Below, in pieces: positions 397 through 27,419 of a stretch of 38,301 bases of DNA. The DNA is from a virus (lineage: Duplodnaviria > Caudoviricetes). The first letter of the stretch is position 1. Each line of letters starts with the position of its first letter. Below the pieces are notes generated by a model. That model searched no databases. It saw only the letters and a program-made list of their open reading frames with translations, and was not told where the DNA came from. The stretch covers positions 1 through 38,301 of the IMG/VR virus record IMGVR_UViG_3300023256_000014, one strand, 5' to 3'. A program made the translations under genes and the position numbers.

Positions 397-1083
397 CTAA
401 CTTACTTGTTCTATTCGTTTATTTTTAAGCATTATAGCAATTAATTGTTTTACTAATTTTCCCTTTTTGTCATCATATATTTTATGTGCTCTGCCAACAA
501 ATCCATCAATTTTTTTATTTTGTCTTGCAAATTGTATTTCTCCGTTTGGTGTGTCTATATAAAATTCGCCAAATCCCATATGTTTTAATTTAGAATTAGA
601 TAACATTCCACTTGATTTATTAATAAAATTAGAATCCACATATGTTACTCCATGGTCTTCTGAGTAGTGTCCTAAATTTTTATCTTCATTTATCATTTCT
701 TTTATCATTTGTCTAACTTCTGATTTCTTCATAGTTTGCGATTCTTTTATTTTATCCTTAAATATTTCTTTCCATGTTCCATAATTTAATGCAATTCTAT
801 TTTGCGTTATATTACCATACACAATATTTTTTTCGCTTGTACTTTTTCCAGTAATTGCTTTATATGCTTTTAATCGCAAATCATTTGGCATTGGATTTTC
901 TTTTCAATTAAACATATCAACAGCAATATACGGATTTGGTCTTTTTGACTTTGACACACTAACACTTATTTTGAATCCTTTTAGGTCATTTTTCATCAAG
1001 TATTGTTTTAATCCTTTTGCGAAATTTACATACCTTTTGCGTTCTTCTTGAGATACTGCTTCTTTTATTTTCGATTTCTTCAT
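397..1083 (-). CDS. Two-module MKKS-leader protein (putative internal head protein)
   Basis: ATG at 1083 (MKKSKIKEA), one in-frame TGA at 904, second in-frame leader MKKSEVRQMIKEMINE at 732, ends TAG. Confidence 0.65.
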
Positions 1084-1105
1084 ATTTCTTATTCCTTATA
1101 ATTTT

Positions 1106-1222
1106 TTAAAACCAAACATATCATTTTGAAGAGCGAAGTGCTTTATCATTCCAAATAATTATATCATCCATAGTATCTTGAATCACCTCACGAATCATTG
1201 TCCTAACTTCTGACTTTTTCAT
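1106..1222 (-). CDS. Short MKKSE-leader protein (38 aa)
   Basis: MKKSEVRTMIREVIQD; TAATG overlap with upstream gene; one TGA; ends TAA. Confidence 0.5.
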
Positions 1223-1458
1223 TACTCTCACTCCACCTTTTTTACATAAATGGTAAGTAATTTTGGATCGCCTTTCCAATCATTACCTTCGCCAGACAAA
1301 ATATCAAATTGACTTAATAAATCGTCAAAGAATGATTTATTTTTAAAATCTGAAGGATAGAATGTTATAAGCCCACCTACATTTTTTTTCCCTTTGTTGC
1401 CTTCATTTATCATTTGGAGTTCTTCTTTTATCATACTTCTAATTTCTGATTTTTTCAT
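1222..1458 (-). CDS. MKKSE-leader protein
   Basis: MKKSEIRSMIKEELQMINE; AGGAG RBS; TGA(1228) read-through reaches a TAA overlapping the next ATG (TAATG). Confidence 0.7.
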
Positions 1459-1468
1459 TTATGTTCTC

Positions 1469-1744
1469 CTATATATTTTTTTTAATGTATAGTTGTTGTT
1501 CATTAGAATTATAATCAAATCCGATTCCAATAGAACTAACAGAATATCCTATTTTTTCAAGTTTAGATTTAAGTTTTTTACGTATGTTGTTATCTTTTCC
1601 ATGAAGTGCTACTATTGCCCCATCTAATCATTTTTCAACATATCTTACGCCTTTAATTTTGCCTAAATCTTGCTGAATCATTTTCTTGATTTCAGACTTT
1701 TTCATTTCTTCTTTAATTATTAATCTTAATTCTGATTTTTTCAT
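1469..1744 (-). CDS. Double-leader protein (91 aa)
   Basis: MKKSELRLIIKEE-MKKSEIKKMIQQ; one TGA; ends TAG; absent from the ORF track. Confidence 0.7.
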
Positions 1745-1756
1745 TTTATTCTTCCT

Positions 1757-1807
1757 TTATTTTAATTCAGGTAACAATTCAGTAATTATATGACTTACCT
1801 TTTCCCG
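1757..1807 (-). repeat. Displaced copy of the 3' end of the prohead protease gene
   Basis: 41/51 nt identical to 15549-15599; encodes KVSHIITELLPELK* versus KVSNIITELLPELK*. Confidence 0.8.
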
Positions 1808-2049
1808 ACAGCTACTATTTTATAATTTTTTAAATGACTGTCGTGTATATTAAATGACTTGCCAGTTTTAAAATTAGTAAATTTATAATAACTTCCTTTC
1901 TTCGTAAAATGTCCAACATATCTACACAAGCCAACATCTCAATCCAAGTCTATTTGCTTTAATCTATACATATGCTTCGGAATTAATTTAATTGAACTTG
2001 CTTCTTGTATAACTTCTTTAATTATTTTTCTTAATTCTGATTTTTTCAT
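1795..2049 (-). CDS. MKKSE-leader protein (84 aa)
   Basis: MKKSELRKIIKEVIQEA; AGGAG RBS; one TGA; ends TAA. Confidence 0.7.
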
Positions 2050-2059
2050 TTATGTTCTC

Positions 2060-2332
2060 CTATATATTTTCAATATCTTTAATTGAGACAAGTTCTTGGG
2101 GCTTAAAATGCATTAATTTAATTCCCGAAATTGGTTCTATATATACTCTTTTTGTTTTTCTGTTGCAATTTGTGATTTTAAAGATTATTTTTGCTTCCTT
2201 TTTATTTACAGGTTTTTTTAATTTAACTGGTTTTGTCAAATCAACATTATCTAATACTCCAACCACTGTACTGTTCGATTTTACTTCTTTTACAAGATTT
2301 CGTATCATTGTTCTAACTTCTGATTTTTTCAT
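2060..2332 (-). CDS. MKKSE-leader protein
   Basis: MKKSEVRTMIRNLVKE; AGGAG RBS; ends TAG. Confidence 0.7.
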   Translation of the reverse strand: MKKSEVRTMIRNLVKEVKSNSTVVGVLDNVDLTKPVKLKKPVNKKEAKIIFKITNCNRKTKRVYIEPISGIKLMHFKPQELVSIKDIENI

Positions 2333-2361
2333 TTATGTACTCCTATTTTTTATTTTTTTAT

Positions 2362-3546: not shown

Positions 3547-3564
3547 ATATTTTCTCCTACTTTA

Positions 3565-3768: not shown

Positions 3769-4293
3769 ATGAAAAAGTTAATTAACATTTTACTGAAAGA
3801 AACGCAAAATCTTCAGGTACAATATATAGAATTAACTAAAAAATGGGCAAGAAACGATTTTGTTAGAGCAGAAGAAATGAATTCTTGGAATGATGAAGAT
3901 TGGTGCGAATATCTTGGATTAATTCCCATATTACGTACTAGCCGATTTAGAGATGATTACATGACCTTCCCAAAAAACTTTTACAATACTAAATATGCAA
4001 AAACATATTCTTTAAAACAAGATGCTGTTAAACGAATTGTCCAAATGGGATTTCATAAATATGTTTTGAAAAATATCGAACAAGCAGAAAAACATTACAC
4101 CCAATCAATTGAAAAACTCGCATTTAGAATTAATAAAAAAGGACTCAACATTGATAACCTTAAAACAAAAACAGGACACGTTGGCGTTAATATAGAAACT
4201 ACATTAACTGATGGCGAAAAAACTGTTAGAGCATGGACAATCATTGCAAGCGGAATAGTACAAAGACCACATTACAGATATTTAATAAAATAA
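3769..4293 (+). CDS. Hypothetical (putative early) protein
   Basis: GGGAG RBS before ATG 3769; 4 Trp all TGG; ends TAA. Confidence 0.8.
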   Translation: MKKLINILLKETQNLQVQYIELTKKWARNDFVRAEEMNSWNDEDWCEYLGLIPILRTSRFRDDYMTFPKNFYNTKYAKTYSLKQDAVKRIVQMGFHKYVLKNIEQAEKHYTQSIEKLAFRINKKGLNIDNLKTKTGHVGVNIETTLTDGEKTVRAWTIIASGIVQRPHYRYLIK

Positions 4294-4306
4294 AGAGGAG
4301 ATACAA

Positions 4307-4600
4307 ATGAAAGAAAGCAAAGAAATTGCAAAGCAACCTTATGAAATGACAAAGAAAGAGTTTGCAAAAGCATACAAGGATAAAGGTGATGGATTATATG
4401 ATTTGGGACAACGTGGAATTATAGATGAATACAAAAAGAAAACAATAATGTCATCTGAAATAATAAGGGTTACTGAAAAATATCCAAAAGATGTTGATTA
4501 TGACAGATTCCTTATAGTAAGAAAAGCACTATCCGAAAGAAAAACAATTCCAACAGAAGTATTGGCTGACTATCCAGAATTATTTAAAAATCTTAACTAA
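4307..4600 (+). CDS. Hypothetical (putative early) protein
   Basis: GAGGAG RBS; ends TAA; co-oriented with neighbours. Confidence 0.75.
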   Translation: MKESKEIAKQPYEMTKKEFAKAYKDKGDGLYDLGQRGIIDEYKKKTIMSSEIIRVTEKYPKDVDYDRFLIVRKALSERKTIPTEVLADYPELFKNLN

Positions 4601-4612
4601 ATTAAAATAAAC

Positions 4613-4640
4613 TTGACAAAACCACCAATAAGAATACTAT
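4613..4640 (+). promoter_or_regulatory. Sigma70-type (early) promoter, second copy
   Basis: TTGACA-16 nt-TACTAT-AGTTATGTAAGTGA; leader ends AAAAAAACAAAGGGAG as in the first copy. Confidence 0.75.
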
Positions 4641-4692
4641 AGTTATGTAAGTGAGAGAGTGAAAGAGATAAAAAAAACAAAGGGAGAAATAA

Positions 4693-4905
4693 ATGAGCAA
4701 AATAACAAAAAATACTAAATGGTCTATAGTGGATGATCAAGACAAAAGAAAAATACATGCTTATCATTTAACATCAAAAGAAGCTCTTGCATTATATAAT
4801 GAATTAACTGGATATGAAAGTAAAACGATCGAACATGCATATAATAATACAGGACACCATAAATGGATGCTTATAAAGGATGATGATGTCTTTACAATGT
4901 TTTAA
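4693..4905 (+). CDS. Hypothetical (putative early) protein
   Basis: AGGGAG RBS; 2 Trp both TGG; ends TAA. Confidence 0.75.
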   Translation: MSKITKNTKWSIVDDQDKRKIHAYHLTSKEALALYNELTGYESKTIEHAYNNTGHHKWMLIKDDDVFTMF

Positions 4906-7092: not shown

Positions 7093-8694
7093 CTATACTG
7101 TGTTCAATCCGTGTACAATGATCTTTCCATAAAATTCAGGTCTGACCATTTTCTTCGCATAACGGGTCATTACCGCTTTACGTGGAACGAAAGTATCAGG
7201 ATCATAGATGAGTGGACTCATAATCAATGGAATATATGGCGCAAATACGGCACCTGTTTCCAAGAATGTGCTACCACGATATCCAATAAGAATTACGTTT
7301 TCTTTCATATAAGGATTTTTGTAAACAGTTAATCTGTTATTCAAAGCACCTATTTTCTTAACACCCATTGCAAATTGCATTTGATTACCATCTGTATCAG
7401 CATTATAACCAGGCATAGATTCAATGATTGTTGCTACGTCAGGAGAAACAACTATAAAGTTAGCTCCGCCTCTCATTGTTTTCGCATGGATTTGATTTGA
7501 TACTTTTTGTAATTTAATACCAAGAGTTTGGTACCAAGTTGTTTTGTCAGAGATGTAGTATTGTGAGTTAGCCGCAAAAGCACCAGTGTTAGCGTTATAT
7601 TCAACGCCTGGATTTGCAGACCAATATTCAGTTGTGTCAGCCGCTACAATTAACATATCTAAGATTTCAAGGTCAATCTCCATCGTCACATGCTCAGACA
7701 ACATAGTTGTCAATTCTTGCTCTGCGTCAATAGCGTGATAAGCTTGAAGGTCTTGACTAATTTCAGGTGTTCACACAGCTTTCAATTTTTTAGTCTTTGC
7801 TACAATAGCTTCGGACTTGAATTCGATGTCGATTTCAGGAATATCAATTGGACTATTTGTTGAATTTTCTTCGAAGTCACCTCTGTCATATGCAGAAGGT
7901 TGTTTTTGATAGTAAGCATACAGACCGTCTGTACCTTCTACAAGTGCTGATGATGCTGATACAATAAATTGTACGTTTGTTCCAACTATTTTTGTGAATT
8001 GTGGGTAATATTCGTCGAAATTAGCACTTGTTGCACTACTAGAGATTGCGAAACCTCTAATGCCGTCTGTATCATATTCTGAAAGAGCAGATACAGGTAT
8101 TGCTAATTTATAAATACCTTTACCTGCGGCGGTAGCCGCTACTGATGCTGATAAATCAGCGTCATAATTTACGTCAGACCATGCAATTGCAGAACCGGTA
8201 TTAACGTCTTGTACTGATGAACTGAAGTTATTTGATGAATAAGTAAATCTACCAGCGCCATAAAAGCCACCGTAAGGTGCGTTTGCTGATGCTGATGTAA
8301 TACCATGAACAGGGTCGCCGTCTGTGTAAGGTAACTTAGTTGTTCCGTACTTGAAGTTTATGTAAAACACAAGTCCAGATGGTAAGTTCATTGGTTGAAC
8401 ACTTACAAATTCTTTTGATGGAAGTTCACCAAAAATTCTACGTACTAAAGGAAGTGCAACTCCAGACCACTCTTCTGAGCCGGCTGTGTTACCAGTAGTA
8501 GTTGATTCTTTGATTAACTCACGTGCTTGGTTTTCAAGAAGTATTGCCATATTGCTACGGTCGTATCCTTCCAAACCTTCTAAAAGACCAGTTTCGTCCC
8601 ATTTGCCAGCAAGCAATTGTGCTTGTTTCATTTTGGACTTATGAGGGTCTGCACTTTCCATCAGTCTTTTAATATTGGTTAAATTTTTTCCCAT
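7093..8694 (-). CDS. gp23: Major capsid protein (T4 gp23 family), 533 aa
   Basis: LPLVRRIF, VSVQPMNLPSGLVF, KTKKLKAV(W)TPEISQDLQAYHAIDAEQEL, FAPYIPL, MTRYA; a single TGA at 7771 in the conserved KLKAxW position. Confidence 0.95.
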
Positions 8695-8709: not shown

Positions 8710-9837
8710 TTATTTTCTTATATTTGCTAAAAGTTGGTATCTATCTTTTATAGGATTAGATACTTTGTTTCTAATAATTCTTTTCTTCCTATTTACAAGA
8801 ATCGCTTTAGATGCGGTTCCTTCTCTAAGAGTGTTTGGCTTAGTTGCCCTGATTTTCTTTTGTCTGTCCTTGTAAGCTTCAAACAAAGTTTTATAGATTA
8901 ATTTGATGTCACTAATGTTCTTAGCTTTATCAAATGCCTCAACGATTTTGTATTTTTGCATTTCAGAAAGTTTCTTACGTTTTAACATGTCATTGACATA
9001 AAGCAATTTAGCTTGCACAAATTTTTGTTCTGCAATTTTTCGTTTGAAAAGTTTTGTTCCTGCTTTATATTTTCTCAATTCTGTTGTAAGCTTTTTGTTT
9101 CTGGCTTTTAATGATTCAATTTCTAAATCATCATCTTCAATTTCGTCATCTTCAATTTCAACTTCGTCGTCGTCTTCAATGTCAAACTCAAGGTCTTCGT
9201 CTTCTTCAATTTCAACTTCGTCATCTTCAATTTCAACTTCGTCGTCTTCTTCAATTTCGTCATCTTCAATTTCAACTTCGTCGTCTTCAATGTCGATATC
9301 ATCATCTTCGCTAAGATCTTCCATTTGTTTCATAATGGCTTCGAGGTTAATTTCTTCTTCCTCTTCTTCCTCATCTTCCTCATCTTCCAAATCATCAACA
9401 TCAATGTCCATTTCTGCATCTTCCAATCCGGCAACTGCTTCATCTTCGTCGTCTTCAATTTCATCATCCTCAATTCCATCAAGGTCAACTTCTTCTTCGT
9501 CTTCCAAATCTTCATCGTCTTCCAAATCTTCATCGTCAATTACATCAAGGTCAATTTCTTCTTCTTCGGCTGGTGCGTCATAGGCATCATCTTCAATTTC
9601 TGCTTCTTCTTCGCCTTCAATATCGTTAAAGTTTTCCCCATCTTCTAAATCATCATCTTCTAATTCGTCTTCTTCTTGTTGTAATCTTTTAGCGATAAGT
9701 GATTTAAGTTGTGGTGTGAATCTTTCTTTTAACTTTTCTTGAGCGTTAAAGAGAGAAATTTCCATAAGAGCTTTCGCATCTGTGATGCATTCGTCGATAA
9801 GTCTTAATGAACCTGTGGTTTTTTTTACTTTACCCAT
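8710..9837 (-). CDS. Prohead scaffold/core protein (gp22-like)
   Basis: Immediately upstream of gp23; long D/E-rich centre, coiled coil, AKLLYVN..VEAFDKA, C-terminal RYQLLANI; AGGAG RBS before ATG 9837. Confidence 0.75.
   Translation of the reverse strand: MGKVKKTTGSLRLIDECITDAKALMEISLFNAQEKLKERFTPQLKSLIAKRLQQEEDELEDDDLEDGENFNDIEGEEEAEIEDDAYDAPAEEEEIDLDVIDDEDLEDDEDLEDEEEVDLDGIEDDEIEDDEDEAVAGLEDAEMDIDVDDLEDEEDEEEEEEEINLEAIMKQMEDLSEDDDIDIEDDEVEIEDDEIEEDDEVEIEDDEVEIEEDEDLEFDIEDDDEVEIEDDEIEDDDLEIESLKARNKKLTTELRKYKAGTKLFKRKIAEQKFVQAKLLYVNDMLKRKKLSEMQKYKIVEAFDKAKNISDIKLIYKTLFEAYKDRQKKIRATKPNTLREGTASKAILVNRKKRIIRNKVSNPIKDRYQLLANIRK
9130..9300 (-). repeat. Coding tandem repeats EDDEVEIEDDEIE in the scaffold
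   Basis: Recurrent tcttcaatttcaacttcgtc / tcttcaatttcgtca units. Confidence 0.8.
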
Positions 9838-10060: not shown

Positions 10061-10279
10061 TTACCTTTTATTGTTCATTAGCTTAAATTTTTGTCTTCTT
10101 TTTCCGATATTCAATGCTTCTTGCCTAATTTTCGATGGTTTTTTGAATTCTCTTCGTTCTTTCAGTTCGACAAATAAATTCTGCATTTTTAACTGTCTTT
10201 TAAAAGTTTTTAATGCTTCCGAAAAATTACCGTTCTTAACTTCTACCTTACTTCCGTCCTGCATATAACTTGGTCGCAT
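10061..10279 (-). CDS. rpsU: Phage-encoded ribosomal protein bS21
   Basis: VEVKNGNFSEALKTFKR..ELKERREFKKPSKIR matches the bS21 pattern; TAGGAGG RBS. Confidence 0.85.
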   Translation of the reverse strand: MRPSYMQDGSKVEVKNGNFSEALKTFKRQLKMQNLFVELKERREFKKPSKIRQEALNIGKRRQKFKLMNNKR

Positions 10280-10951: not shown

Positions 10952-11272
10952 TTATTTCTCCATCTTGCCAGTCAAAACAAGCTCCAATTCTACTTTGTCA
11001 GATTTTAGAGGAAGAGTGACCTCTAAAGAATCCAATTCACGGTTAGCAAATTTTACTTTGTTAAAAAAGTTTTTCAAATATGCTTTCTCTTTTTTCCAAT
11101 CTCTTGCACCTTTATTAGGCATTAACCATAATGTTTTTCTATTAGTCATAAGTTCAGCAATATATCCTTTTAAGTGGATTTGACTAGATTCTATAAGCTT
11201 TTTATTTGCAAAAGTTTTAGAGCTTAATCATACGCCACCGCCAATTGTTATTTCATTTAACAAATCTTTCAT
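10952..11272 (-). CDS. Hypothetical protein with MKDLLNE leader
   Basis: TAATG overlap with upstream gene; one TGA; in frame with track ORF 10952..11149. Confidence 0.65.
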
Positions 11273-11595
11273 TATACACTCACCTTCTTAAATACTTTTT
11301 CTAATTTTTTCTCATTAATGGGAGTATCATCAAGATTTACTATTACAACCAAATCATCTCCCTTTATCCATTTATTGTCACCATTTACAACCATTAAATT
11401 GCCAAAGTTTTTTTGAAATGCTTTAATAAGTGGCCAAATTGGTTGCGGTGTGCTTGCGGGCGAAACATTATCCAAATATATTGTTTTCTTATCTGGCGAC
11501 AACCATATACGTAAATTGTTAGTTTGCGTATATTTAATCTCAAATAATCTTTGTAGTTCTTCTTTAATGTAAGTTCTTAATTCTGATTTTTTCAT
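11272..11595 (-). CDS. MKKSE-leader protein
   Basis: MKKSELRTYIKEELQRLFE. Confidence 0.75.
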   Translation of the reverse strand: MKKSELRTYIKEELQRLFEIKYTQTNNLRIWLSPDKKTIYLDNVSPASTPQPIWPLIKAFQKNFGNLMVVNGDNKWIKGDDLVVIVNLDDTPINEKKLEKVFKKVSV

Positions 11596-11600: not shown

Positions 11601-12032
11601 TTATCCTTTTAATTTATTGTAAAACTTTAAGTCTTTAACTAATTGTTCTAACTTTTGAAGTTCTGGTTTCGTTTTAACATCAAGAGAAAATTCTGAGGTA
11701 AATAAAATTCTACCCTTTTCTCCCTTCATATGAATATACGGATGGATACTTGACTTGCTAATATTGATAAATTTCTTGGCTTCGTCTATAAAATTTTCTA
11801 CTGCTTTATTTTGATGGCGTTCAACACTTTTTATATCTTTTGTTACTAACGGTGGTGCTGATACATGGTCGGTCAATACTATTTTCAAGTTTTTGCCCGC
11901 AAACGTAGATACCACAAGAGAACCGGCAGGGATTCATCTCACAATATTATGCAATTCGTTATCACTTAAATTTGCTTCATTTAATTTTTGTATTTCTTCT
12001 TTAATCATTGTTCTAATTTCGGACTTCTTCAT
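11601..12032 (-). CDS. MKKSE-leader protein
   Basis: MKKSEIRTMIKEEIQKLNEA joined by one TGA to track ORF 11601..11915; AGGAG RBS. Confidence 0.75.
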
Positions 12033-12303: not shown

Positions 12304-12618
12304 TTATTCTCCAGTTATGATTTTATTTAACTTATCTATTTTCTTTTGTAGCTGTTCATCAAGATAATTAAAAACCTTTTCGTTTATATCTTTCGGCATA
12401 GCAGTTGGCCTTACAGGTGAAGCGAAAATTACTGGGTTTTGTTGAGTATAAAAACTAACATCACCTTTATTTATTTCACTAATAAGCTTGTCTAACGCCT
12501 CTGTTTCTTGAATTGCTAACTTTACCTCTGCGACTGTTCTTACATGCTTAGGCGCTGGGTTTGCTACTTTGGTCTTCGTTTCTTTCTTAATTTCTGCTTT
12601 TATATCTTTATTTTCCAT
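12304..12618 (-). CDS. Hypothetical protein
   Basis: AGGAG RBS; tight packing with neighbours. Confidence 0.7.
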   Translation of the reverse strand: MENKDIKAEIKKETKTKVANPAPKHVRTVAEVKLAIQETEALDKLISEINKGDVSFYTQQNPVIFASPVRPTAMPKDINEKVFNYLDEQLQKKIDKLNKIITGE

Positions 12619-12931
12619 TTATAACTCCTGTGTATATTAATATTTTTGGGCCTTTTACTAAGTCTGTAAAGCTAAACATATCGCCATCTTCTACTTCGTT
12701 AACGCTTATATTACTAAGTATATCATCAACTGTTTTCTTATCTTTCGGCTTTAATTTTTTGTATATTTTATCTCACTCTTTTGTGCCATGCTTAATATCG
12801 TCTTCCCAAACGTCGTCAAGATTGCAGAAATATCCATTCTTACGATTAATTGCTGGATAGCCTACTACCGAATAGAGACGTATATTATCGGGCTTGTAAG
12901 CTTCTTTCAATTCAACGGCACTTGTACTCAT
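12608..12931 (-). CDS. Hypothetical protein (MSTSAVELKE...)
   Basis: TAATG overlap; one TGA; ends TAA; fills a gap in the track. Confidence 0.6.
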
Positions 12932-15055: not shown

Positions 15056-15277
15056 TTAATCTTCATTATATATGCCAATTTTAATTAATGCACTTTGGCC
15101 ATTTTTAAAATCAACCAATCATTGAGTTTTGTCAAACTGACTTATATAATTAACTTTGCTTGCCGACTTCAATGCCGAAACAACATTATTTATTGCCTCT
15201 TTTCTATTCTTCTCCCAATTTGATTTTCCTTCCAACAATTCTTCTTGAATCATTTTTCTTATTTCTGATTTTTTCAT
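15056..15277 (-). CDS. MKKSE-leader protein
   Basis: MKKSEIRKMIQEELLEG; one TGA; ends TAA. Confidence 0.7.
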
Positions 15278-15548: not shown

Positions 15549-16172
15549 TTATTTTAATTCAGGCAATAATTCTGTAATTATATTGCTAACTTTATTCCAT
15601 TTAGTATCTTCTTTTACAAGGTTTGAATCTACACCTTCTTTAAGTGGTTTCATAAATGCACCTTTTGTTGAAGGGTTGGAGACAAAATCTCAACAAATTA
15701 ATTCAAAGTCTTCTTGTACATAGTCTGCACTCATATTGTCTTCATTTTGATTGTTTTTAATTGAACCCAATCCTCTTGACGAAATGCCCAATCTAATACC
15801 TGACTTAAATAATTCTTTTAAGATGTTGCCCGAAGGAGTTCCCAATACTTCAATAACTCCCATTAAATTTTTATTTTCTCAATATAAATCTAATATATTG
15901 TGGGAAACATTGTTTAAGTTTATCACACTTGAATCAGGATGATCTAATTCTCCCATCGCCCTGCTTTCTTTAATATATGAATCTGTATAATTTTTCGCTT
16001 CCTTTGTCAATATATCATAAGGATATATTCTACCATTTTGATTTAATGCATCTGCTCTTTGTACAATGCCCTTAACGATAAATCTATTGTCTGTTCTTCC
16101 CATTGCCTCTGTTATTACTTCATGTGGAACTTCGAACATCATCGTATCTATTAATAACTTTTTGTTATTCAT
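15549..16172 (-). CDS. gp21: Prohead protease (T4 gp21 family), 207 aa
   Basis: NQNGRIYP, GELDHP, VSH, LY(W), TPSGNIL, GISSRGLGS, IC(W)DFVSNPST; TGAs at 15879 and 15690. Confidence 0.92.
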
Positions 16173-16995: not shown

Positions 16996-17205
16996 TTATT
17001 TTATCTTTTTGAAATATACCCAAAAACTTTTTTTAAACGCATCGAATAATTTATCAGCATTTGCATCTTTTCCAGAAAACTTTCTTTTTGTTCACTCTTG
17101 CTGAATCAAGTCATGAAATTCACTTTGTATTTTTGAATCAAGTCCGCCTTCTTTAAGTAACTCTTCTTTGATCATTTTTCTAACTTCTGATTTTTTCATT
17201 TTCAT
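16996..17205 (-). CDS. MKKSE-leader protein
   Basis: MKMKKSEVRKMIKEELLKEG; AGGAG RBS; one TGA. Confidence 0.7.
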
Positions 17206-17343: not shown

Positions 17344-17544
17344 TTATATTGTGTTTAATACAGAGTTAAGTTGCTTTAGTGCATCTTCGGCTTTTTTTGC
17401 TTTCACTTTATCTGTTATCTTATACTTTTTAAGTTTGGATTCCAAATCCTTAACCATCTTAACTAATTCTTTATAATCAGCTTCTCTAAGTGCTTGGACT
17501 TCTTCTTTAATCATATCTCTAACTTCTGATTTTTTCATTTTCAT
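17344..17544 (-). CDS. MKKSE-leader protein
   Basis: MKMKKSEVRDMIKEEVQALREA; AGGAG RBS. Confidence 0.7.
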   Translation of the reverse strand: MKMKKSEVRDMIKEEVQALREADYKELVKMVKDLESKLKKYKITDKVKAKKAEDALKQLNSVLNTI

Positions 17545-17576: not shown

Positions 17577-18065
17577 TTAATAAATATTGCTTTTTCTGAA
17601 TATATATAGCGCTTCTTGTGCATCGTCTTTTGTTTTGAACATGAATACGCTTCCATATAATTCATAATCCAATTTATCTTCTGATTTATCAAGTGCACTT
17701 TTTGCATTTTTAGCTTTTGATGGTCTTACTAATACACTAAAATTACGTTGCGCTTCTTGGATTTTTTTTTCTCTTAATTTTTTAACTTCTTCTCTTATCA
17801 TTGTTCGTATTTCTGATTTTTTCATTTGTTTGCCTTCCTTAATGGTTTCTCATTTGCCATTGTTTCATAATTTGGGACCAATTTTTAATTTCATTTTTTT
17901 TGCCATTTTTTTTACATCATTCATCGTTCTATCTGATGACATTACTGGCATACCTTTGTGAATTAAAGTAAAGCCATTTGATGTTTTTGATACATAAGTG
18001 TCTGGCTCTTCTCTTAATTTCTTAACTTCTTCTCTTATCATTGTTCTAACTTCTGATTTTTTCAT
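17577..18065 (-). CDS. In-frame fusion of two MKKSE cassettes
   Basis: GPKL(W)NNGK(W)ETIKEGKQ-MKKSEIRT: two TGAs link 18065 to 17825 in frame; internal start at 17825 also possible (AAGGAAGG). Confidence 0.65.
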
Positions 18066-18078: not shown

Positions 18079-18759
18079 CTATTGTATTCTTTTTAAACTG
18101 CCATTTTGGTTTACGAGTAATGCAAAAAATTGAATTGGTGGAATTTTTTCGTCCCCAACAATCTTATATCTTTTTTTTACTTTATTGACTATTGCTTTTG
18201 GTACATTGTTACTATAATCGATAAACATATTTATGTTTCCCATATCATCATCAAGCATTCTAACACGTCTATATAGCCCAGTTGTTAAATACTGAGTTAT
18301 GATTTTCTTCTTTGCGCTCGCAACCGTTCCAGTTGCAAGGTTGCCCGCCAATTGCACGTCTATTTTGTCAATCGGTATCCCATATTGTCTAAACGTACTA
18401 ATAAAAATATCTGGATTATCAAACTCAGCACGTGCTGTTAAAAATACAATTTTAGAATCACCATTACCAATTCTTTTAAACATTTGCTTAACTCTTTTAA
18501 TAACTGGCATTATAGGAATTGCAGTATTCTTAAATAATTTCGCATCTCTAAACTCACTATAGCCATAACGATATCCTTTTTTTAACTTAAAGGTATTATA
18601 CTCTTGATTATTAAGTTTCTTAACTATTTTCCCAGTATCATCATCCACCACATCTATTTTTGCTTTGGTATGAAATGTTGTTTCGTCAATATCTACGAAA
18701 GTAATTCCAGCACCATAGTCACTTTGCAATTCTGTTAAAAGTTTAATAAAACTAAACAT
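18079..18759 (-). CDS. HAD-superfamily phosphatase-like protein
   Basis: FVDIDET (motif I), FLTAR (motif II), K, LDDD..N (motif IV); N-terminal MFSFIKLLTE. Confidence 0.75.
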   Translation of the reverse strand: MFSFIKLLTELQSDYGAGITFVDIDETTFHTKAKIDVVDDDTGKIVKKLNNQEYNTFKLKKGYRYGYSEFRDAKLFKNTAIPIMPVIKRVKQMFKRIGNGDSKIVFLTARAEFDNPDIFISTFRQYGIPIDKIDVQLAGNLATGTVASAKKKIITQYLTTGLYRRVRMLDDDMGNINMFIDYSNNVPKAIVNKVKKRYKIVGDEKIPPIQFFALLVNQNGSLKRIQ

Positions 18760-18760: not shown

Positions 18761-19060
18761 TTATTTTTTATTTTTCTTAAAAGTTACATCGTATATGTTT
18801 GAGCCTGACCTTGTTTCTTCTTTTAATTTTTTTAATTGTTCAAAGACTGCCTTTGCTCATTTTTTATATGCTTCAATTGCTTTTTTGTGAGCCTGTTTGT
18901 AATCCATTTCATCATCTTCGCTATAATAGAATTCCATATTTGCTGTAATGTCATTAATAGCACTTCTTACTTTATCTCTAATGCCATATTTCAAACCGTA
19001 GTCCATACCTTCTTTAATCATCTCTTCTTTTATCATTGTTCGTATTTCTGATTTTTTCAT
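18761..19060 (-). CDS. MKKSE-leader protein
   Basis: MKKSEIRTMIKEEMIKEG; AGGAG RBS; TGA 18857 read-through ends 1 nt before the next ATG. Confidence 0.7.
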
Positions 19061-19074: not shown

Positions 19075-19341
19075 TTACATTCAAGCTTTTCTTTTTTTAA
19101 ATAAATCAAACATAATTAAAGCCATTTCTGTCCTAATTAATTCTTTAATTTTCCTATAATCTTCTGGTTCAAATTCTTCATTAAGACTAGCACCTTTTGC
19201 GGCTTCTCACCCAAAAATCTTACATCATTTGCGAATATCTTTTAAGCGCTTTGAATTTGGACCTTTGGTTGAAAATGCATATGGAGTTTCATATCCAGCA
19301 ATATCTCCTGTTGTACTAACTTCTCTTAAAAAACTTTTCAT
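19075..19341 (-). CDS. Hypothetical head-region protein MKSFLRE...
   Basis: MKSFLREVSTTGDIAGYETPYAF...FDLFKKRKA(W)M*; three TGAs; T4 internal-protein-like short leader. Confidence 0.7.
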
Positions 19342-19379
19342 TATATCACCTTTATTTCATTTATTTCTGATTTCTTCAT
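19341..19379 (-). other. Leader-only mini-ORF MKKSEINEIKVI
   Basis: Starts 2 nt after the upstream stop and overlaps the next ATG (TAATG). Confidence 0.45.
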
Positions 19380-19381: not shown

Positions 19382-19624
19382 TTATGGTCTCAAAAGGGAT
19401 TTTGCTCTTTGTAATGCTTTAATTGCGGCTTTCATTTTAGATATCAATTCTTTGTAATTTTTATTGCTTTTATCTATGCCAGCATGAGAATCAATTGTTC
19501 CAATTTTCTTGATAATGTCCGAAATATATTGGCCGCCTTTATTGGCTTTCATTTGTGGAGATTTCTCTTGCATTACTTTTGCTAACTCTTCCTGTATCAT
19601 TTGCTTAATTTCTGATTTCTTCAT
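19382..19624 (-). CDS. MKKSE-leader protein
   Basis: MKKSEIKQMIQEELAKVMQE. Confidence 0.7.
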   Translation of the reverse strand: MKKSEIKQMIQEELAKVMQEKSPQMKANKGGQYISDIIKKIGTIDSHAGIDKSNKNYKELISKMKAAIKALQRAKSLLRP

Positions 19625-19926: not shown

Positions 19927-19929
19927 AAT

Positions 19930-20913: not shown

Positions 20914-23388
20914 TTATTTTAACATTATTTTATCTTTTTCGCTTTTTAAAACCTCTTTTATTAAGGCTTTCTCACTTTCTTCTTTTGCATAAGTTAAGGT
21001 CGCTTCAAGTCTTTCCAAGAAACCAAATTTATCCTTAATTCTCTTTTCAGTTAATGCTTGATTCTTTTCAATTTTCTCATCGTCTTCCCCAAATACGTCA
21101 GCTACGGTTCCCTCTAATGATAAAGCACTGCCACCTTTATACTTGTGAGAAATTACATCTTTGTCATATTTATGTGCGTCTTTCATATCATCTACTCCCA
21201 ACGTCGTATCAATTTTACTTTTCTTTGCTTTTCTGTTATCGTCACTGCTCGAACTAACATTCTCTTCAACATCATCATCGTCACCGTCCCAACTAAAACC
21301 ATCATCCTCATTATCTCCACCTTCTGGTTCTGACTTTGCATCTGCCGGATCCGTTCCATTATTTGCAATGGTTTCCATTCTAAACATTCGTTTTTTATCT
21401 TTGATAACGCCAGCACGTTCTTTATCGGAATCAATATCATTTAATTTAAAAATTTGCTCATATACAAAATCACTACTTAATAGATTTGTATCCATCATAT
21501 CATTTGCCAATGATACTTTGGCATTCCATAATTCAATTTTCATCTCTTCATGTATTACTGAAGGATTTGTTAAACTTAATTCAAAATCTAATAAATCTTT
21601 ATTTTTATATCCCTGAGAATAAAGGTGAATAATCGCAATCTTTGTTAATTCAGAAACAATAATACTTTGTATTCTTTCAATTGTTCTCGCAAATCTTAAA
21701 TCTTCGGCGGCAAGTGTGGCTTTTGAATTATGTATGATTACGCCAGCATTTGTTGCAAAATTATGATATTTTTCAATTGTAATATCGCATGTATCTCTTT
21801 GTTCATTAAGAAATTCTATGCTAATTACTTTATGGTTTTTAATATTTTTATTTCTTATAAATTTCGGCCATGCAATGTTATTTTTTTTATTAAAATCACA
21901 ATGATGAATTGCCATGTCTGAACCTTTAATAACGTTTCCATAATGTTCTGGAACAAGTCTATGTACTTCTTTATATTTGCCCGTATTTGGTTGGTAAACG
22001 GTAGTATATCCGTATTTTGTTTTATCCAAATATAAAGGCATTAATGATTGATTTTCTATTAAATTTTGTGCCTCAACTCACTCGCCATTTCTTGTTAAGA
22101 ATTCATGATCTGGAGTGCAATCAATATATTTACTATTATCTAAATTAACTCTAACTAAATTAGCGTTTTTCTTTGTATATCCGGCCCAAGATATTTCGCC
22201 AGGAACAATTTCTTTTTCTTCATTAATTGAATATACATAATTTTTAATTCCACCTTCATAATCTTCGATTAATTCTTTAACTGTTTTTACTTCATCATTA
22301 ATTAATTTAATTTCTGTTTCAGGAACAACACATCCAATTCCCTCTTCGAAAGTTAAGAACGCTTTAGGTATTCTTAATGATGCAAATAATTTTCTTTGTA
22401 AGTATTCGATGTCGTCAATAATTGCGTATTCCATTCCACTTAATGTATCGATTTCAGTCCCAGTGTCGCCACCACGAACTGGGAAGAAAAAATCTTCGTT
22501 AATATTCATCATATTATATTTAAGGTTATATTCTCCAGTTGCTTGGTCTATAAATGGAGTCCTTCTCATACCATTCATGATGTTTTCCATATGGTCGTCA
22601 ATCTCGTCAGGTGCTAATGCGCCAACATCTATTTTTATAATTCTTTTTTCAGGTGCTCTTGTTATTCTGTGAATAAGCATAGCATCTTCCATAAGTGTTA
22701 ATTGTTGCCATATCTTCCTACCACCTTCAAGCATACTTCGACCATATGGGAAGTGAAATACATCGCCTAACAATCTAAAGTGAGCTACTTGAAATTCTTC
22801 TAACATATCTTTTTTATCACCAGCTATAACAAATTGTACTAAGTATGGATTGTCTTCGTCAACGCCTTCAAGTCTTTCGACTTCATACGGCGATAATATT
22901 TTAATGTTAATAATGCCCAAATCTTTATGAAGTTCTAAATATAAATAACAATCTCCGAATTTAGCCATATTTCTGATTCAGCCTCATAAATTAAATGGGA
23001 TATTCAAAATGTCATAAAATAAATTTTGTAATATATCTTCTATATTTTTATTATCAGTCGTAATAGATAAGATATCCTCGAACTCATCTCTTGTAGTTGA
23101 TTCTTCTGCGTAAAGATCAAGTGCCGATGACAATATCGGGTCTCTATCCATTTGCATATAATCATTATATAGCATTTGATGATCAATAGAACCTTGAATT
23201 GCTCCACTCGCTTCTTCTAATTTTGCGTATGTTTTCATACGAGAATATTTGCCAGATTCACCATGACGCATTTGAAATCCGTCCGCATCTACAACTTTTA
23301 CTTTTTTCTTACCAACGTATCTTACAATCACGTTATTAGAGAATAATCTTCTCAACCCTCTATAAAAATTACTTGTTTCTTGTGCCAT
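20914..23388 (-). CDS. gp20: Portal protein (T4 gp20 family) with intein, 824-aa precursor
   Basis: FNL(W)G(W)IRNMAKFGD, LMEDAMLIHRITRAPEKR, EDFFFPVRGG..TEIDTLSG, SLRIPKAFL, EDLRFARTIERIQ; TGAs at 22984, 22978, 22078. Confidence 0.93.
21727..22332 (-). mobile_element. Intein (202 aa) in portal with HNH remnant
   Basis: EEGIG|CVVPETEI...CTPDH...DITIEKYHNF..GVIIHN|SKATL; internal VHRLV..IHHCDFNKKNN. Confidence 0.9.
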
Positions 23389-23403: not shown

Positions 23404-25026
23404 TTATAAGAATTCTCTTAAATTCATTACTTGCCCACTTACTGACGCTTTCCATGGGTCGTCATTATCATTGTCATTATACATTTGCTTTGAAGTTAAT
23501 TTGCCTGTATATTTTAACATTCTTTTCGTTGATTTAACACTTTCTTGTAATAAAGTAATTGCCGTATCTCTTACGTACAATCCTATTGCCGCTGACAATG
23601 TTAAGTCGTCTCGCTTACCACTAATGGCTTCTGCTTTGCCACCCTTTTTATATATAAAAGTTAATAACTCATTTAATAATCTATTTGAGTGTACTATGAC
23701 AGCCTCTTCTCTAAAAAATCTTTCCATTTTATTTATCATTAATGGTCTTGTTATCATTGTATTACTAAATCCTGGAACTTTATCATCATTTGATTTTAAT
23801 AAATTTTTTACTCGTTTGCCAATATCAGCTTTTGTTCCTGCTTTGCCAGAATAATATAAATTGCCATATCTTCTATGTAATGCGCCCTCTATGGCCGCAT
23901 ACCCAAGCCCGTTATTTTCTATTACTAATAAAGCACTATTGTATTCGAGTGCTACGTTTACTGTCCAAGTTCCTAAGTCGTACGGGTCAATTAACCCAAC
24001 ATACTCGCCAACTTGTTCGAGTGTTTCTATATCTCAAATATGAAATGCTGACTTGTCTTCTGAGTCACCACGTGAAACGTCAACAGAAACTATATACTTA
24101 TGATTTGCTTCGGGATATTTTCATATTCAGAATTTTCCGGCATATCTTTTTTCTATTGGGTCACATGCATTCTTTTTTCTATGTGCTTCTATTATTTCCA
24201 AATCAATTACTGAATCACCAGAAGTAAGGAAAGAACAATCATTCTCTTGAGACGCCCTCTTCTTGCCTAATTTCTTATCTTCATTGTCTCTGTAAATTTG
24301 ATCTCTTTCCGGGTGTACGCTTCATGGCAATCTAATGGTATGGAACTCATTATCGCCTGATTCAGCATCAACTCATAAATCGTGAAATTGATTACCAACA
24401 CCTTTGGGAGTTGATAAAATAATACAATCACCACCAGTTGCCAATGTGTTGCTTGCGGCTGTCCAAATCTCCCTTGCTAAATTTTCTTTTACAATCGCAC
24501 ACTCATCCCAAATTAATAATGATAATGCATCAGAACGACCAGCGTCATCGGTTGCAGATGTAGCTTCAACAGTTGAGCCATTTATGAATGTAAGTTTTGT
24601 TTTACTATCTACTGGTAATTTACCGTTTTCATTTTGCACAATTTTTTGCAATCATCTCGGTAAGTTTTTGTAAATAGTTGATATTTTATTAATCATACTA
24701 TTGGCAACTTTTGCTTTATTTGCTATAATCAATACTGTTTTGTTATCATGGAACATTAATAGTCATGTCGCATAAGCCGAAGTTAAAGTTGAGATGCCTA
24801 ACTGCCTTGCTTTTAAAATAATGTTATATCGGTATTTTAAAAACTCTTGGATTGCTTTCTCTTGATAATCAAACAAATCAAATTTTATTAAACCTTTTAA
24901 TGGATGTTGAATTTTGCAATATTTTATCATAAAATATGCTGGGTCTCTTGCGCATCTGCTCATTTCTTTTTTAATAAGCTTTCGCATTTCCATTATTTTA
25001 ATTTGCTCTTCTGTTGGTGTACTCAC
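23404..25026 (-). CDS. gp17: Terminase large subunit (T4 gp17 family), 540 aa
   Basis: LKARQLGIST, LPR(W)LQ, LLIWDECA, LSTPKG, RLP(W)SVHPERD, VDVSRGDSEDKS, DDL; GTG start; seven TGAs. Confidence 0.95.
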
Positions 25027-25028
25027 AA

Positions 25029-25433: not shown

Positions 25434-25444
25434 ATTGCTATCCT

Positions 25445-25759
25445 TTATTTCTTTGATAAATTTTTGAATTTGAATTTACCGAAAAATCTTGTTCTTTTCG
25501 CCTTCTTCGTTAAATGTTTCACATAATTTCTAAATATATCATTTACTAACCTAGAGGCCTCATCTCTATCCGCCTCTACGCCTTTGTGCTTAATAAGATT
25601 ATCAACATTCTCTTCAATGACGGTTATAACACTTTTTATCATTTCATTATCTAATAAGTTATAAAAATCTTTATCACTCAATGCAGATGTTATATTGTCT
25701 GCAAAACTTTCCCTTATTACCTCTTCCTTGACCATTATTCTTATTTCTGATTTTTTCAT
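25445..25759 (-). CDS. MKKSE-leader protein
   Basis: MKKSEIRIMVKEEVIRES. Confidence 0.75.
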   Translation of the reverse strand: MKKSEIRIMVKEEVIRESFADNITSALSDKDFYNLLDNEMIKSVITVIEENVDNLIKHKGVEADRDEASRLVNDIFRNYVKHLTKKAKRTRFFGKFKFKNLSKK

Positions 25760-25770
25760 ATTATCATCCT

Positions 25771-26313
25771 TTATTTTATTTTCTTTAAAAATTTAGATAG
25801 GTTTTTAACTTCGCTTTTTTCATTTTCTGGCAATTCATTCCAAAATGAATCGTCGCCACTTATAAAATTATAAAAATTATCAAAAATTCTATCCATCGTT
25901 TTTGTTATTTTAATTTTCTTAAAAAATTTTGCCAAAACTGGTTTGGTATATCTCACTTCTTGTAAAAATTCAAAATCATCTGAAGTTAAATGTGACAAAT
26001 CTTTGTCTGGTTTGTTAGGAATTGTATAAATATATATATCCCTGCCAATTGGATTTTCGCCAGCCATATAAGCCAAGGCAGAATACGCTCCTAACATTGC
26101 GCCACCAATATATTTCGAGGCAGAAAGCTCTTTCTTTTCGCTTTGAGCTATAACGTTGCCTGTGGTAAACACTAAGTTTCCGTCTTCATCTGTTTCTTCG
26201 TAATGACCTTTCGGCTTTAAGCGAACATTATTGCCAACATACTTCATTAAGGCTCTGTAATATTGATTTGTAGAGCCTTCGAAAAGTAATGATTTAAATT
26301 TTAATGTGTTCAT
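25771..26313 (-). CDS. Hypothetical protein, possible ADP-ribosyltransferase fold
   Basis: Leader KFKSLLFE; YYR...LSAS...IYIYTI...QEVRY ordered like R-S-E ART motifs. The gene is solid; the function is tentative. Confidence 0.5.
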   Translation of the reverse strand: MNTLKFKSLLFEGSTNQYYRALMKYVGNNVRLKPKGHYEETDEDGNLVFTTGNVIAQSEKKELSASKYIGGAMLGAYSALAYMAGENPIGRDIYIYTIPNKPDKDLSHLTSDDFEFLQEVRYTKPVLAKFFKKIKITKTMDRIFDNFYNFISGDDSFWNELPENEKSEVKNLSKFLKKIK

Positions 26314-26318
26314 TATAT

Positions 26319-26630
26319 TTATTTCCCATTGATAAACTCTTTTAAAAAATCTATCGTTTCGTCGATGTCAGTTGTATCGACTTTTGGTTTAATTTCTTTA
26401 AGCTCTTTTTCTAACTCAACAATACTTTTGTTAGTTTCGTCTATATCGCCCTCATTGTTTTCCTTTTGTTCTTCAAGCTTTTTTATTTCTTTCTTAATTT
26501 CTTTAACTTGTTTTTTCTTTTTCTTTATTAACAAACTATTAATATTTGATTGTGGCAATAATATTATAATTGCCGCAACTATAACGATACCTATCAATAT
26601 TCGAATCAAAGTTTTTGCTTGTATTTTCAT
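26319..26630 (-). CDS. N-terminal TM plus coiled-coil protein (i-spanin-like topology)
   Basis: ILIGIVIVAAIIILL then poly-K and heptad-rich segment. Confidence 0.6.
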   Translation of the reverse strand: MKIQAKTLIRILIGIVIVAAIIILLPQSNINSLLIKKKKKQVKEIKKEIKKLEEQKENNEGDIDETNKSIVELEKELKEIKPKVDTTDIDETIDFLKEFINGK

Positions 26631-26632
26631 AA

Positions 26633-26887
26633 TTACCTCAATTTATCCAATAACTTTTTTGCTTGCATATAATAATGACTAGCCTGACTGAAATGCTTTT
26701 CGGCGGTAGCAAACGCTCTACCTGGTGTAGTATTCTCAAGATTATTTTGCTTAATGTATTCCTTTGCCTTTCGCCTATCTTCGTCAGTTTGTGTCAGTGC
26801 TATGGTTAACGGCACCAATACTTTTCCATTATATTTGCCTTCAAAAATAATATCTTTCATTTCGTTTAATTCTTTATCATTAATCAT
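26633..26887 (-). CDS. Leader-variant protein MINDKELNEMKDIIFE
   Basis: TAGGAG RBS before ATG 26887. Confidence 0.65.
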   Translation of the reverse strand: MINDKELNEMKDIIFEGKYNGKVLVPLTIALTQTDEDRRKAKEYIKQNNLENTTPGRAFATAEKHFSQASHYYMQAKKLLDKLR

Positions 26888-26898
26888 ACTTATTACTC

Positions 26899-27036
26899 CT
26901 AAAAAAAATGCGTCTCTAATCAAGGCAAGTGCGTTTTCCGAAGTATGTTTTCTTTAAGTAACTTCATATACGTTTTAACAAGGTTCGGGCGTTCTTTCGC
27001 CTTTTTCAATAATTTAGCACGCCCTTCTTTTGTCAT
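26899..27036 (-). CDS. Small basic hypothetical protein (45 aa)
   Basis: TAATG overlap; one TGA; ends TAG inside the next RBS. Confidence 0.45.
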
Positions 27037-27419
27037 TAAAATGTTCCCAATTCTTGTTGTTTTAAAATATCATCAACATTCAGAATGACTTTAGTTTTAC
27101 CTTTTTCCCATTTGGGCTTTAATTGCTTTACTAACTCATCTTTGGCTCTGTTATTAAACTTTCTAATTCTATAATCTTTAATTAATTGTTTAGCAATTTT
27201 TAATGCATCATTTTTATAAGCCTTCCCTGCTATTGCGAATGATATACTCGTAAGTCCCTCATGCATAACGTCCTCCCCTAATTCATCTTTAATAAAATCA
27301 TCAAGCGATTTATCGTATCAGTTTAATTTAGTATGTCCAAGGTTATCTGGGCCATAGGCAATGGTTTCTTCTTTAATCATTTCTTTAATCATTACTCTAA
27401 CTTCTGATTTCTTTAACAT
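27036..27419 (-). CDS. MKKSE-leader protein
   Basis: MLKKSEVRVMIKEMIKEE; AGGAG RBS; one TGA joins to track ORF 27036..27266. Confidence 0.7.

What the first reader, a model, noticed from the sequence alone, without database searches (positions are those of the whole stretch)
397..27419. About 25 unrelated payloads share one N-terminal leader: candidate capsid-targeting cargo system
Seen: MKKSE(I/V/L)(R/K)xMI(K/R/Q)EE followed by an (L/I)xE site starts at 732, 1222, 1458, 1705, 1744, 2049, 2332, 11595, 12032, 12299, 14977, 15277, 15529, 17199, 17538, 17825, 18065, 19060, 19379, 19624, 25759, 27419, with variants at 1083, 13185, 19926 and looser ones at 26887, 28388, 30249. Downstream of the (L/I)xE I see no similarity between payloads. 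The genes cluster among neck, scaffold, protease, portal and terminase genes. Known: T4 IPI-III carry a ~10-aa capsid-targeting sequence removed by gp21 after (L/I)xE, and injected IPI* blocks GmrSD restriction. Inference: a distinct, much expanded address tag that loads many small proteins into the prohead for release and injection, possibly anti-defence or host-takeover factors.
Basis: partly seen in the sequence, partly recalled or inferred. Interest (0 to 1): 0.92.

Follow-up and report, generated by a model that had tools for sequence, protein, structure and literature searches.

The report
Clip-off head-loading tag on phage proteins
Nineteen otherwise unrelated proteins encoded among the head genes of an uncultured salt-lake phage begin with the same short peptide, which likely works like phage T4's "pack me into the head, then cut me off" tag, so the virus would carry an unusually large kit of ready-made proteins whose jobs are unknown.

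Summary
The leader is real, but the count is 19 N-terminal copies, 3 internal copies and 1 dead 12-codon frame, not about 25 payloads. The window is the head module of a T4-type phage that reads TGA as Trp.

The tag is less distinct than claimed. Its core has the hydrophobic-x-x-hydrophobic-I-x-E spacing of the T4 capsid targeting sequence, shifted by two residues and aliphatic instead of aromatic. A second (L/I)xE follows at residue 16-19 in 14 of 19 (background 12-21%).

In relatives the same tag heads 160 payload clusters, and a profile finds 1,788 protein clusters. It swaps with a shorter T4-like tag on the same payloads, and payload modules are joined into polyproteins at (L/I)xE sites.

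Best reading: a prohead-core address removed by the gp21-type protease (about 0.68). Packaging, cutting and injection are untested. No tagged payload matched a known anti-defence family, so that step is weaker (about 0.3). One relative carries tagged genes among replication genes, and RM378 and Mel-JY01 lack the long tag.

My paper searches found no description of this tag. This scan has noted similar tags on many other genomes. New variant of a known kind.

The parts
1106..1222 (-). 38-aa frame with long leader; no downstream (L/I)xE, possibly a remnant
1222..1458 (-). long leader, I-x-E19, 78 aa, no family
1469..1744 (-). two leaders in tandem (1744 and 1705), 91 aa, no downstream (L/I)xE
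1795..2049 (-). long leader, I-x-E16, 84 aa
2060..2332 (-). long leader, V-x-E16 only, 90 aa
397..1083 (-). two-module protein, 228 aa: truncated leader with I-x-E8, then an internal full leader at 732 preceded by I-K-E
11272..11595 (-). long leader, L-x-E19, 107 aa; homologue in G002
11601..12032 (-). long leader, L-x-E19, 143 aa
12045..12299 (-). long leader, L-x-E17, 84 aa
13853..14977 (-). long leader on a 374-aa module chain: DUF5049 (117-166), a module shared with G002 (253-332), a Zn ribbon (from about 334); (L/I)xE at 96, 102, 198, 245
15056..15277 (-). long leader, L-x-E16, 73 aa
15290..15529 (-). long leader, L-x-E19, 79 aa; the payload is an internal module in a relative
16996..17205 (-). 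long leader (motif at 17199), L-x-E17
17344..17544 (-). long leader (motif at 17538), L-x-E19
17577..18065 (-). two tagged modules fused: leader at 18065, internal leader at 17825 preceded by I-K-E; the first module stands alone in G002
18761..19060 (-). long leader, I-x-E17, 99 aa
19341..19379 (-). dead 12-codon leader remnant whose stop overlaps the next start
19382..19624 (-). long leader, M-x-E20 only, 80 aa
19627..19926 (-). long leader (MKKLE variant), L-x-E19, 99 aa
25445..25759 (-). long leader, I-x-E17, 104 aa
27036..27419 (-). long leader (MLKKSE), I-x-E17, 127 aa
27882..28388 (-). loose long leader, L-x-E18, 168 aa
29890..30249 (-). loose long leader, no downstream (L/I)xE
19075..19341 (-). 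conserved head-module gene with a short tag (L-x-E7); 23 of 25 orthologue N-termini carry a long helix instead
10952..11272 (-). short tag (L-x-E7); the same payload carries the long leader in G003 and is a C-terminal module in G002
12608..12931 (-). short tag (L-x-E10); three homologues sit directly behind a long leader
18079..18759 (-). short tag (L-x-E10); protein P0132 shows the same N-terminal stretch behind a long leader (seen by eye)
25771..26313 (-). short tag (L-x-E12) before a predicted ADP-ribosyltransferase-like fold that starts at residue 11-14
29010..29879 (-). P-loop kinase-like protein with a short tag (L-x-E15); a homologue has a long-type start
30511..34173 (-). 1220-aa chain of five repeats, each starting right after (L/I)xE (25, 227, 433, 643, 841)
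15549..16172 (-). prohead protease, Peptidase_S77, homologue of T4 gp21
8710..9837 (-). scaffold-like acidic protein before the capsid gene (named from position and composition; no family hit)
7093..8694 (-). Gp23 major capsid protein with a conserved (L/I/V)xE near residue 63
20914..23388 (-). T4-type portal with an intein
23404..24993 (-). terminase large subunit

Best explanation
Nineteen unrelated proteins of this phage start with one 12-20-residue peptide, a predicted amphipathic helix, that likely docks them in the prohead core and would then be cut off by the phage's gp21-type protease after (L/I)xE, leaving the small, mostly basic payloads inside the head. Shown by sequence: the shared leader; T4-like spacing of its core (hydrophobic at -6 and -3, I at -2, E12); a second (L/I)xE at 16-19; swapping with a shorter tag on the same payload; payload modules joined at (L/I)xE; and the protease, capsid and scaffold-like genes with matching sites. 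Inferred from T4: binding to the core, cleavage and retention in the mature head. Inferred with weaker support (about 0.3): ejection into the host and a counter-defence or takeover role for many payloads. The 5' DNA of the tag likely spreads by recombination or duplication and so recruits new payloads.
For: Downstream (L/I)xE in 14 of 19 window leaders, against 11 of 93 and 113 of 546 interior stretches. In relatives, 206 of 251 against 162 of 1,332, with 188 at E16, 17, 19 or 20 (the DNA pattern that found many of them, does not cover these positions). The residue after the site is A/G/S in 71 of 159 against 28 of 166 interior sites; T4 gp22 is cut at Glu-Ala (PMC9026906, passages). The T4 IPII/IPIII tag has the same spacing, and IPI has a second site at E19. 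16 of 19 leaders fit that spacing against 9 of 38 other genes, most of which are the short-tag class. Homology to relatives begins right after the site, and long and short tags swap. The 1220-aa protein has five repeats, each after (L/I)xE. The protease matches Peptidase_S77 (E 9e-26) and T4 gp21, PDB 5JBL (E 2e-14). All 13 distinct capsid N-terminal stretches printed keep L-(L/I/V)-x-E, and scaffold E85 and E104 are invariant in 28 sequences. With a window-only profile, LR756508.1 has tagged genes in 12 of 110 genes within 50 kb of the capsid gene against 1 of 611 elsewhere (p 1e-9), and immuto has 4 of 106 against 0 of 123. All 5 large contigs tested encode Gp23 and S77. No Pfam-named replication or chaperone enzyme in the regions checked carries the tag.
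Against: No virion, cleavage or expression data exist here. 3 of 19 leaders lack any downstream site even with V/M allowed, and 5 of 19 lack a strict one, although 18 of 19 have some strict site within 20 residues once E12 is counted. In G008, 4 of 5 matches lie more than 50 kb from the capsid gene, two of them between DNA polymerase, GroES/GroEL and AAA genes. In G010 two tagged genes lie just downstream of a DNA polymerase gene. RM378 (0 of 158 genes) and Mel-JY01 (0 of 247) lack the long tag although they have this type of capsid. The tag has aliphatic, not aromatic, residues at the positions T4 needs for targeting. Leader codons are more alike than codon bias predicts (0.70 against 0.56), so DNA-level spread contributes. 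(L/I)xE is a short, common motif, and about 80% of SPN3US head proteins are not cut by its protease (PMC10052503, passages).
Confidence: 0.68

Rival explanations
1. The helix is a cleavable propeptide with another job: it holds the payload inactive, recruits a chaperone, or fixes it to an outer or tail part of the particle, without loading it into the core.
For: T4 propeptides also recruit chaperonin (PMC10052503, passages). One conserved tagged gene in G006 lies beside baseplate gp25. Tagged genes occur outside the head block in G008.
Against: A prohead protease acts inside the prohead (T4; PMC9026906, passages), so the enriched (L/I)xE makes most sense for proteins that get there. Tagged genes crowd around head genes in most genomes tested.
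Confidence: 0.13
2. The conserved unit is DNA: a ribosome-binding site plus A-rich 5' codons that serves as a recombination and expression cassette; the peptide is a passenger.
For: Codon identity is 0.70 against 0.56 expected; Ser4 uses TCA in 18 of 22 copies and Glu5 uses GAA in 22 of 22. There are dead, doubled and fused copies, and the payload set turns over almost wholly between the window and G002, whose capsid is 87% identical.
Against: Changes are conservative at the protein level: I/V/L at position 6 by five codons, position 8 free with eleven codons. The helix is amphipathic (moment 0.37 against 0.28 +/- 0.03 in 1,000 shuffles, maximum 0.39). The second site floats in helical steps. 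The peptide pattern persists in a 484-kb phage with different N-terminal residues.
Confidence: 0.1
3. The helix mimics the N-terminal helix of the large terminase and docks proteins on the portal or the packaging motor.
For: An iterated profile scored 29 of 31 terminase N-termini above threshold.
Against: That profile had taken terminases in during training. The window-only profile scores 1 of 31 and a terminase-free retraining 2 of 31. 0 of 31 terminases have the downstream (L/I)xE.
Confidence: 0.04

Closest known systems
[quoted passage not shown]
   Same: A short shared N-terminal peptide on unrelated small basic proteins; hydrophobic-x-x-hydrophobic-I-x-E spacing; 10-19-residue length; L/I-x-E cut motif; a homologous protease. 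T-even phages are known to vary the payload behind a conserved CTS (PMC3012670 and PMC9026906, passages).
   Different: Two residues longer before the first hydrophobic position; aliphatic instead of Tyr/Phe; Lys/Arg-rich helix; usually two sites (E12 and E16-20). There are 19 copies here against three IP proteins in T4. It also occurs internally in fused chains and on a conserved head-module gene. Nothing has been tested in a virion.
T4 Alt (packaged ADP-ribosyltransferase with a 7-residue propeptide)
   Same: 25771-26313 has a short tag followed directly by a predicted ADP-ribosyltransferase-like fold.
   Different: 180 aa; the best structural match is rifampicin ART Arr at Z 6.8, rmsd 4.4, 117 aligned, on a model of mean pLDDT 64. 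It carries the short tag, not the MKKSE leader. Activity is untested.
phiKZ/SPN3US head and ejection proteins with protease-cut propeptides
   Same: Many head proteins cut after x-x-E, with redundant sites (PMC9026906 and PMC10052503, passages).
   Different: Their motif is A/S-x-E, and most SPN3US propeptides are long (111-254 aa). The passages read describe no shared short leader.
Phage P1 DarB N-terminal packaging signal
   Same: An N-terminal stretch (30 residues) sufficient to load a reporter into the capsid, in an anti-restriction system (PMC9024508, passages).
   Different: No consensus is shared among the Dar proteins; here one consensus heads many proteins.

Membership tests
T4 capsid targeting sequence | Short N-terminal peptide shared by otherwise unrelated proteins | tested here: met
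   19 genes with unrelated payloads; 160 clusters among 188 tagged frames of relatives
T4 capsid targeting sequence | Ends in L/I-x-E within about 10-19 residues | tested here: met
   14 of 19 with a site at E16-19, 18 of 19 counting E12; 206 of 251 in relatives
T4 capsid targeting sequence | Hydrophobic spacing at -6, -3 and -2 before Glu | tested here: met
   16 of 19 against the T4 sequences read
T4 capsid targeting sequence | T4 consensus itself (aromatic residues at positions 4 and 7, Glu at 10) | tested here: not met
   The window leader has I/V/L at 6, M at 9 and E at 12, so it is filed as working like a CTS, not as a member
T4 capsid targeting sequence | gp21-family protease encoded by the same phage | tested here: met
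   PF03420 E 9e-26; 5JBL E 2e-14
T4 capsid targeting sequence | Sufficient to package a foreign protein; binds the scaffold core | not testable with these tools
   needs a packaging or pull-down experiment
T4 capsid targeting sequence | Removed in the mature virion | not testable with these tools
   no virion proteomics for this clade found
T4 internal proteins as injected counter-defence factors (IPI type) | Payload related to a known anti-defence or takeover protein | tested here: inconclusive
   No such Pfam or PHROG hit for window payloads; 8 of 130 and 6 of 81 relatives hit only DUFs, Zn ribbon, AAA_33 or weak families; one short-tag gene has an ART-like predicted fold
T4 internal proteins as injected counter-defence factors (IPI type) | Ejected into the host with the DNA | not testable with these tools
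   needs an infection experiment

The most novel reading that the evidence does not exclude
A whole clade of RM378/immuto-related T4-type phages uses this tag as a plug-in port. Any captured domain placed behind the leader, or chained behind another module at (L/I)xE, is packed, cut free and injected. Each virion would deliver 20-50 different ready-made proteins drawn from a pool of at least 1,788 sequence clusters, many of them new anti-defence or host-takeover factors that act before any phage gene is expressed.
Probability: 0.3. Interest if true: 0.85.

Novelty: new variant of a known kind. Interest (0 to 1): 0.55.

Why it matters
If the tag works as inferred, a 12-20-residue profile picks virion-internal proteins straight out of metagenomes. 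It turns about 1,800 unannotated protein clusters into a ranked list of candidate day-zero effectors. It also makes an old T4 idea testable on a large scale: that a portable address lets phages swap their packaged cargo. A cultured carrier exists (Flavobacterium phage immuto), so the test is within reach. A second natural loading tag, with protease-jointed chains, would also be useful for packing proteins into phage heads. The mechanism itself is borrowed from T4, which limits the surprise.

Tried and rejected
Complex prediction of the leader with the conserved post-portal protein (19930-20814) and the scaffold C-terminal part gave no verdict (score 0.00); it is not used for or against binding. 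The AlphaFold model of 19930-20814 (pLDDT 82, all helical) had no PDB match at E<=0.001 by Foldseek; VIA was not run on it.

The ESM Atlas search with the leader gave only unnamed clusters under 0.9. A search for shorter stand-alone homologues of the DUF5049 module found none.

Terminase mimicry was largely a training artefact. Code 25 (TGA=Gly) was rejected. No repeated promoter-like word was found upstream of the genes, only ribosome-binding words.

No RNA holder was listed. Joints have short sides at repeats and were not used.

The first look of the genome search is insensitive for this 22-position profile (7 matches in four named genomes), so whole genomes were rescanned by script. My gene calls there are simple ORF calls.

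Repoila et al. 1994 is not held and was seen only as a reference entry. No supplementary files were read; tables of virion proteomes there could bear on the claim that no packaging data exist.
Full report
What the window is. It is a 38.3-kb, 31% GC virus record; the whole of G000 is the window. Almost all genes lie on the minus strand. Reading TGA as Trp nearly doubles long-frame coding. Homologues from code-11 phages put W opposite 21 of 34 aligned TGA sites by majority and G opposite none. Pfam and PHROGs (59 proteins) name a Gp23 capsid, a Peptidase_S77 prohead protease, a T4 portal with an intein, a terminase, a head-tail adaptor, ribosomal protein bS21, an M15 endolysin, HNH-type nucleases and two P-loop proteins. 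The closest named capsids are LR756508.1 (52%), Microcystis phage Mel-JY01 and Flavobacterium phage immuto (51%), RM378 (37%) and T4-likes (about 25%). That suggests the RM378-related 'Far-T4' group (PMC4360716, passages); I built no tree. The 24 runs listed as holding the DNA are 23 salt-lake and 1 marine metagenome. The host is unknown.

The observation. The motif is at all listed places. It matches 22 times on the coding strand against at most once in 2,000 shuffles. A strict second (L/I)xE at residue 16-19 follows in 14 of 19, and 16 of 19 with V/M allowed; interior backgrounds are 11 of 93 and 113 of 546. The payloads are mutually unrelated, mostly 40-130 aa, and 17 of 19 are net basic (the genome is Lys-rich, so this says little). 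G001 repeats the layout gene for gene from the capsid gene onward, and one contig of run X11 spans 300-2333, so the fusions are real.

The tag compared with T4. T4 ipI-III read from NC_000866 show a ten-residue tag with aromatic residues at 4 and 7 and I-x-E10 in IPII and IPIII, and a later I-x-E19 in IPI. A review states that targeting rests on residues 4 and 7, processing on 8 and 10, that the propeptides are 10-19 residues and that gp21 cuts after L/I-x-E (PMC9026906, passages). The window leader has the same spacing two residues later (I/V/L6, M9, I10, E12) in 16 of 19 copies. Of the 38 other genes, 9 fit the spacing: eight with shorter or looser N-terminal tags and one HNH nuclease, which may be chance. 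The chemistry differs (aliphatic, Lys/Arg-rich; helical moment 0.37 against 0.28 +/- 0.03 in shuffles). It therefore works like a CTS on paper but fails the T4 consensus.

Relatives. Among 251 non-redundant tagged frames from these, 206 have (L/I)xE at 15-25, 188 of them at 16, 17, 19 or 20, against 162 of 1,332 interior stretches (all were read in code 4, two terminases slipped in, and G001 copies are included). After dropping 60 short loci and the near-identical genome, 188 frames fall into 160 payload clusters. The residue after the site is A/G/S in 71 of 159 against 28 of 166. A 30-position profile finds 1,788 clusters at E<=0.001 among 1.84 billion representatives. Of the best 150, 142 have the tag at the N-terminus and 126 of those have the second site. 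In G002 (capsid 87% identical) the core genes keep their order while the tagged genes are almost all different.

Swapping and chains. The payload of 12608-12931 has a short tag here and sits right behind a long leader in three relatives. The payload of 10952-11272 has a short tag here, a long one in G003, and is the last module of a chain in G002. The Zn ribbon that ends 13853-14977 stands directly behind a leader in L155. The conserved gene 19075-19341 has a 7-residue tag here and in G002, and a long helix in 23 of 25 orthologue N-termini (the scoring profile was trained on these loci). The 1220-aa protein is five repeats, each starting right after (L/I)xE. The capsid N-terminal site is kept in all 13 distinct stretches printed, and scaffold glutamates are invariant, so the clade's protease probably shares the T4 motif. 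The protease aligns with T4 gp21. It keeps the His and Ser that I recall as catalytic; the deposited chain shows Ala at the His position.

Genome position. With a profile built only from the window, tagged genes in LR756508.1 are 12 of 110 within 50 kb of the capsid gene against 1 of 611 elsewhere, and in immuto 4 of 106 against 0 of 123. RM378 and Mel-JY01 have none. By HMM, matches lie within 40 kb of the capsid gene in G006 (10 of 11), G007 (7 of 7), G009 (4 of 4) and G010 (8 of 9), but in G008 only 1 of 5. Two G008 copies lie among DNA polymerase, GroES/GroEL and AAA genes, and two G010 copies lie just downstream of a polymerase gene. They are always on separate unnamed frames, never on the named enzymes. 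However, T4's own ip genes lie among denV, lysozyme and tRNA genes with no head gene in the 11 kb read, so distance alone does not refute packaging.

What the payloads do. Among the 19 tagged window genes, only 13853-14977 has a solid family hit (DUF5049, plus weak Zn ribbon). I scanned 130 of the 188 tagged frames of relatives (the 150 longest, less one terminase and 19 code-4 frames) and 81 of the 150 best representatives (the longer ones). 8 and 6 hit anything, all DUFs, Zn ribbons, AAA_33 or weak families. The only functional lead is a short-tag gene, 25771-26313. Its model (pLDDT 64, four sequences) resembles ADP-ribosyltransferases from residue 11-14 onward (Arr Z 6.8, rmsd 4.4, 117 aligned; most top rows are ART-fold). 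This recalls T4 Alt but lies under the Z 8 mark. Anti-defence is therefore an analogy with IPI (PMC3012670 and PMC13326640, passages), not a result. The tag on a conserved head gene suggests that part of the set is core or DNA-neutralising filler.

DNA level. Codons at same-residue positions agree in 70% of pairs against 56% expected from the genome's codon use. Dead, doubled and fused copies show the 5' end moving as a unit. Yet substitutions are conservative and the second site shifts in helical steps, so selection acts on the peptide. I read the DNA likeness as the way the tag spreads, not as its purpose.

Novelty. Searches of the held library (listings and abstracts, with passages from six papers) found the T4 CTS, the P1 DarB signal (PMC9024508, passages) and giant-phage propeptides (PMC10052503, passages), but no description of this tag. 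Subscription papers and supplements were not seen. The scan's own notes hold 542 findings with similar words, and some describe two swappable tags and protease-jointed chains in other genomes. They are unchecked AI notes, and one is marked as partly fallen; none matched this sequence. Verdict: a real, widespread, expanded variant of the T4 head-loading tag; packaging and cutting are likely (0.68), and injection of counter-defence factors is possible (0.3).

Noticed in passing
window 10061-10279 (-): Ribosomal protein bS21 gene inside the head module, just upstream of the scaffold-like gene; also present in G002, G003 and Mel-JY01.
   Followed up: no
window 19930-20814 (-): Conserved 294-aa all-helical basic protein directly after the portal (134 homologues, no Pfam or PDB match); candidate core component.
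   Followed up: partly
window 25771-26313 (-): Predicted ADP-ribosyltransferase-like fold behind a short tag; three homologues only.
   Followed up: partly
window 30511-34173 (-): Trp-rich 1220-aa protein of five repeats jointed at (L/I)xE-x-P-D, holding 22 TGA codons; homologue in G003.
   Followed up: partly
window 20914-23388 and 35740-36897 (-): Inteins in the portal and in a P-loop kinase-like gene.
   Followed up: no
window 12931-13185 and 26633-26887 (-): Two genes share a third leader type (M-I-x-x-x-x-L-N-E-M-K-x-I-x-F-E); the dead frame at 19379 resembles it.
   Followed up: no
whole window; G002: TGA=Trp recoding in this phage and G002, while 78 of 80 protease-bearing relatives read as code 11.
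   Followed up: partly
window 3769-4905 (+): Three small plus-strand genes interrupt the minus-strand module; read depth peaks near 4600-4680 with many loose ends, perhaps a repeat shared with other genomes.
   Followed up: no
LR756508.1, about 177-337 kb (L093-L101): More than 20 genes with the short M-K-L-K-x-L-L-x-E type tag, in addition to 26 long-tag genes.
   Followed up: partly
window 4964-6886 (-): 640-aa protein with Zn fingers and a methyltransferase-looking C-terminal part (by eye) next to the capsid gene; a similar gene follows the capsid gene in LR756508.1.
   Followed up: no
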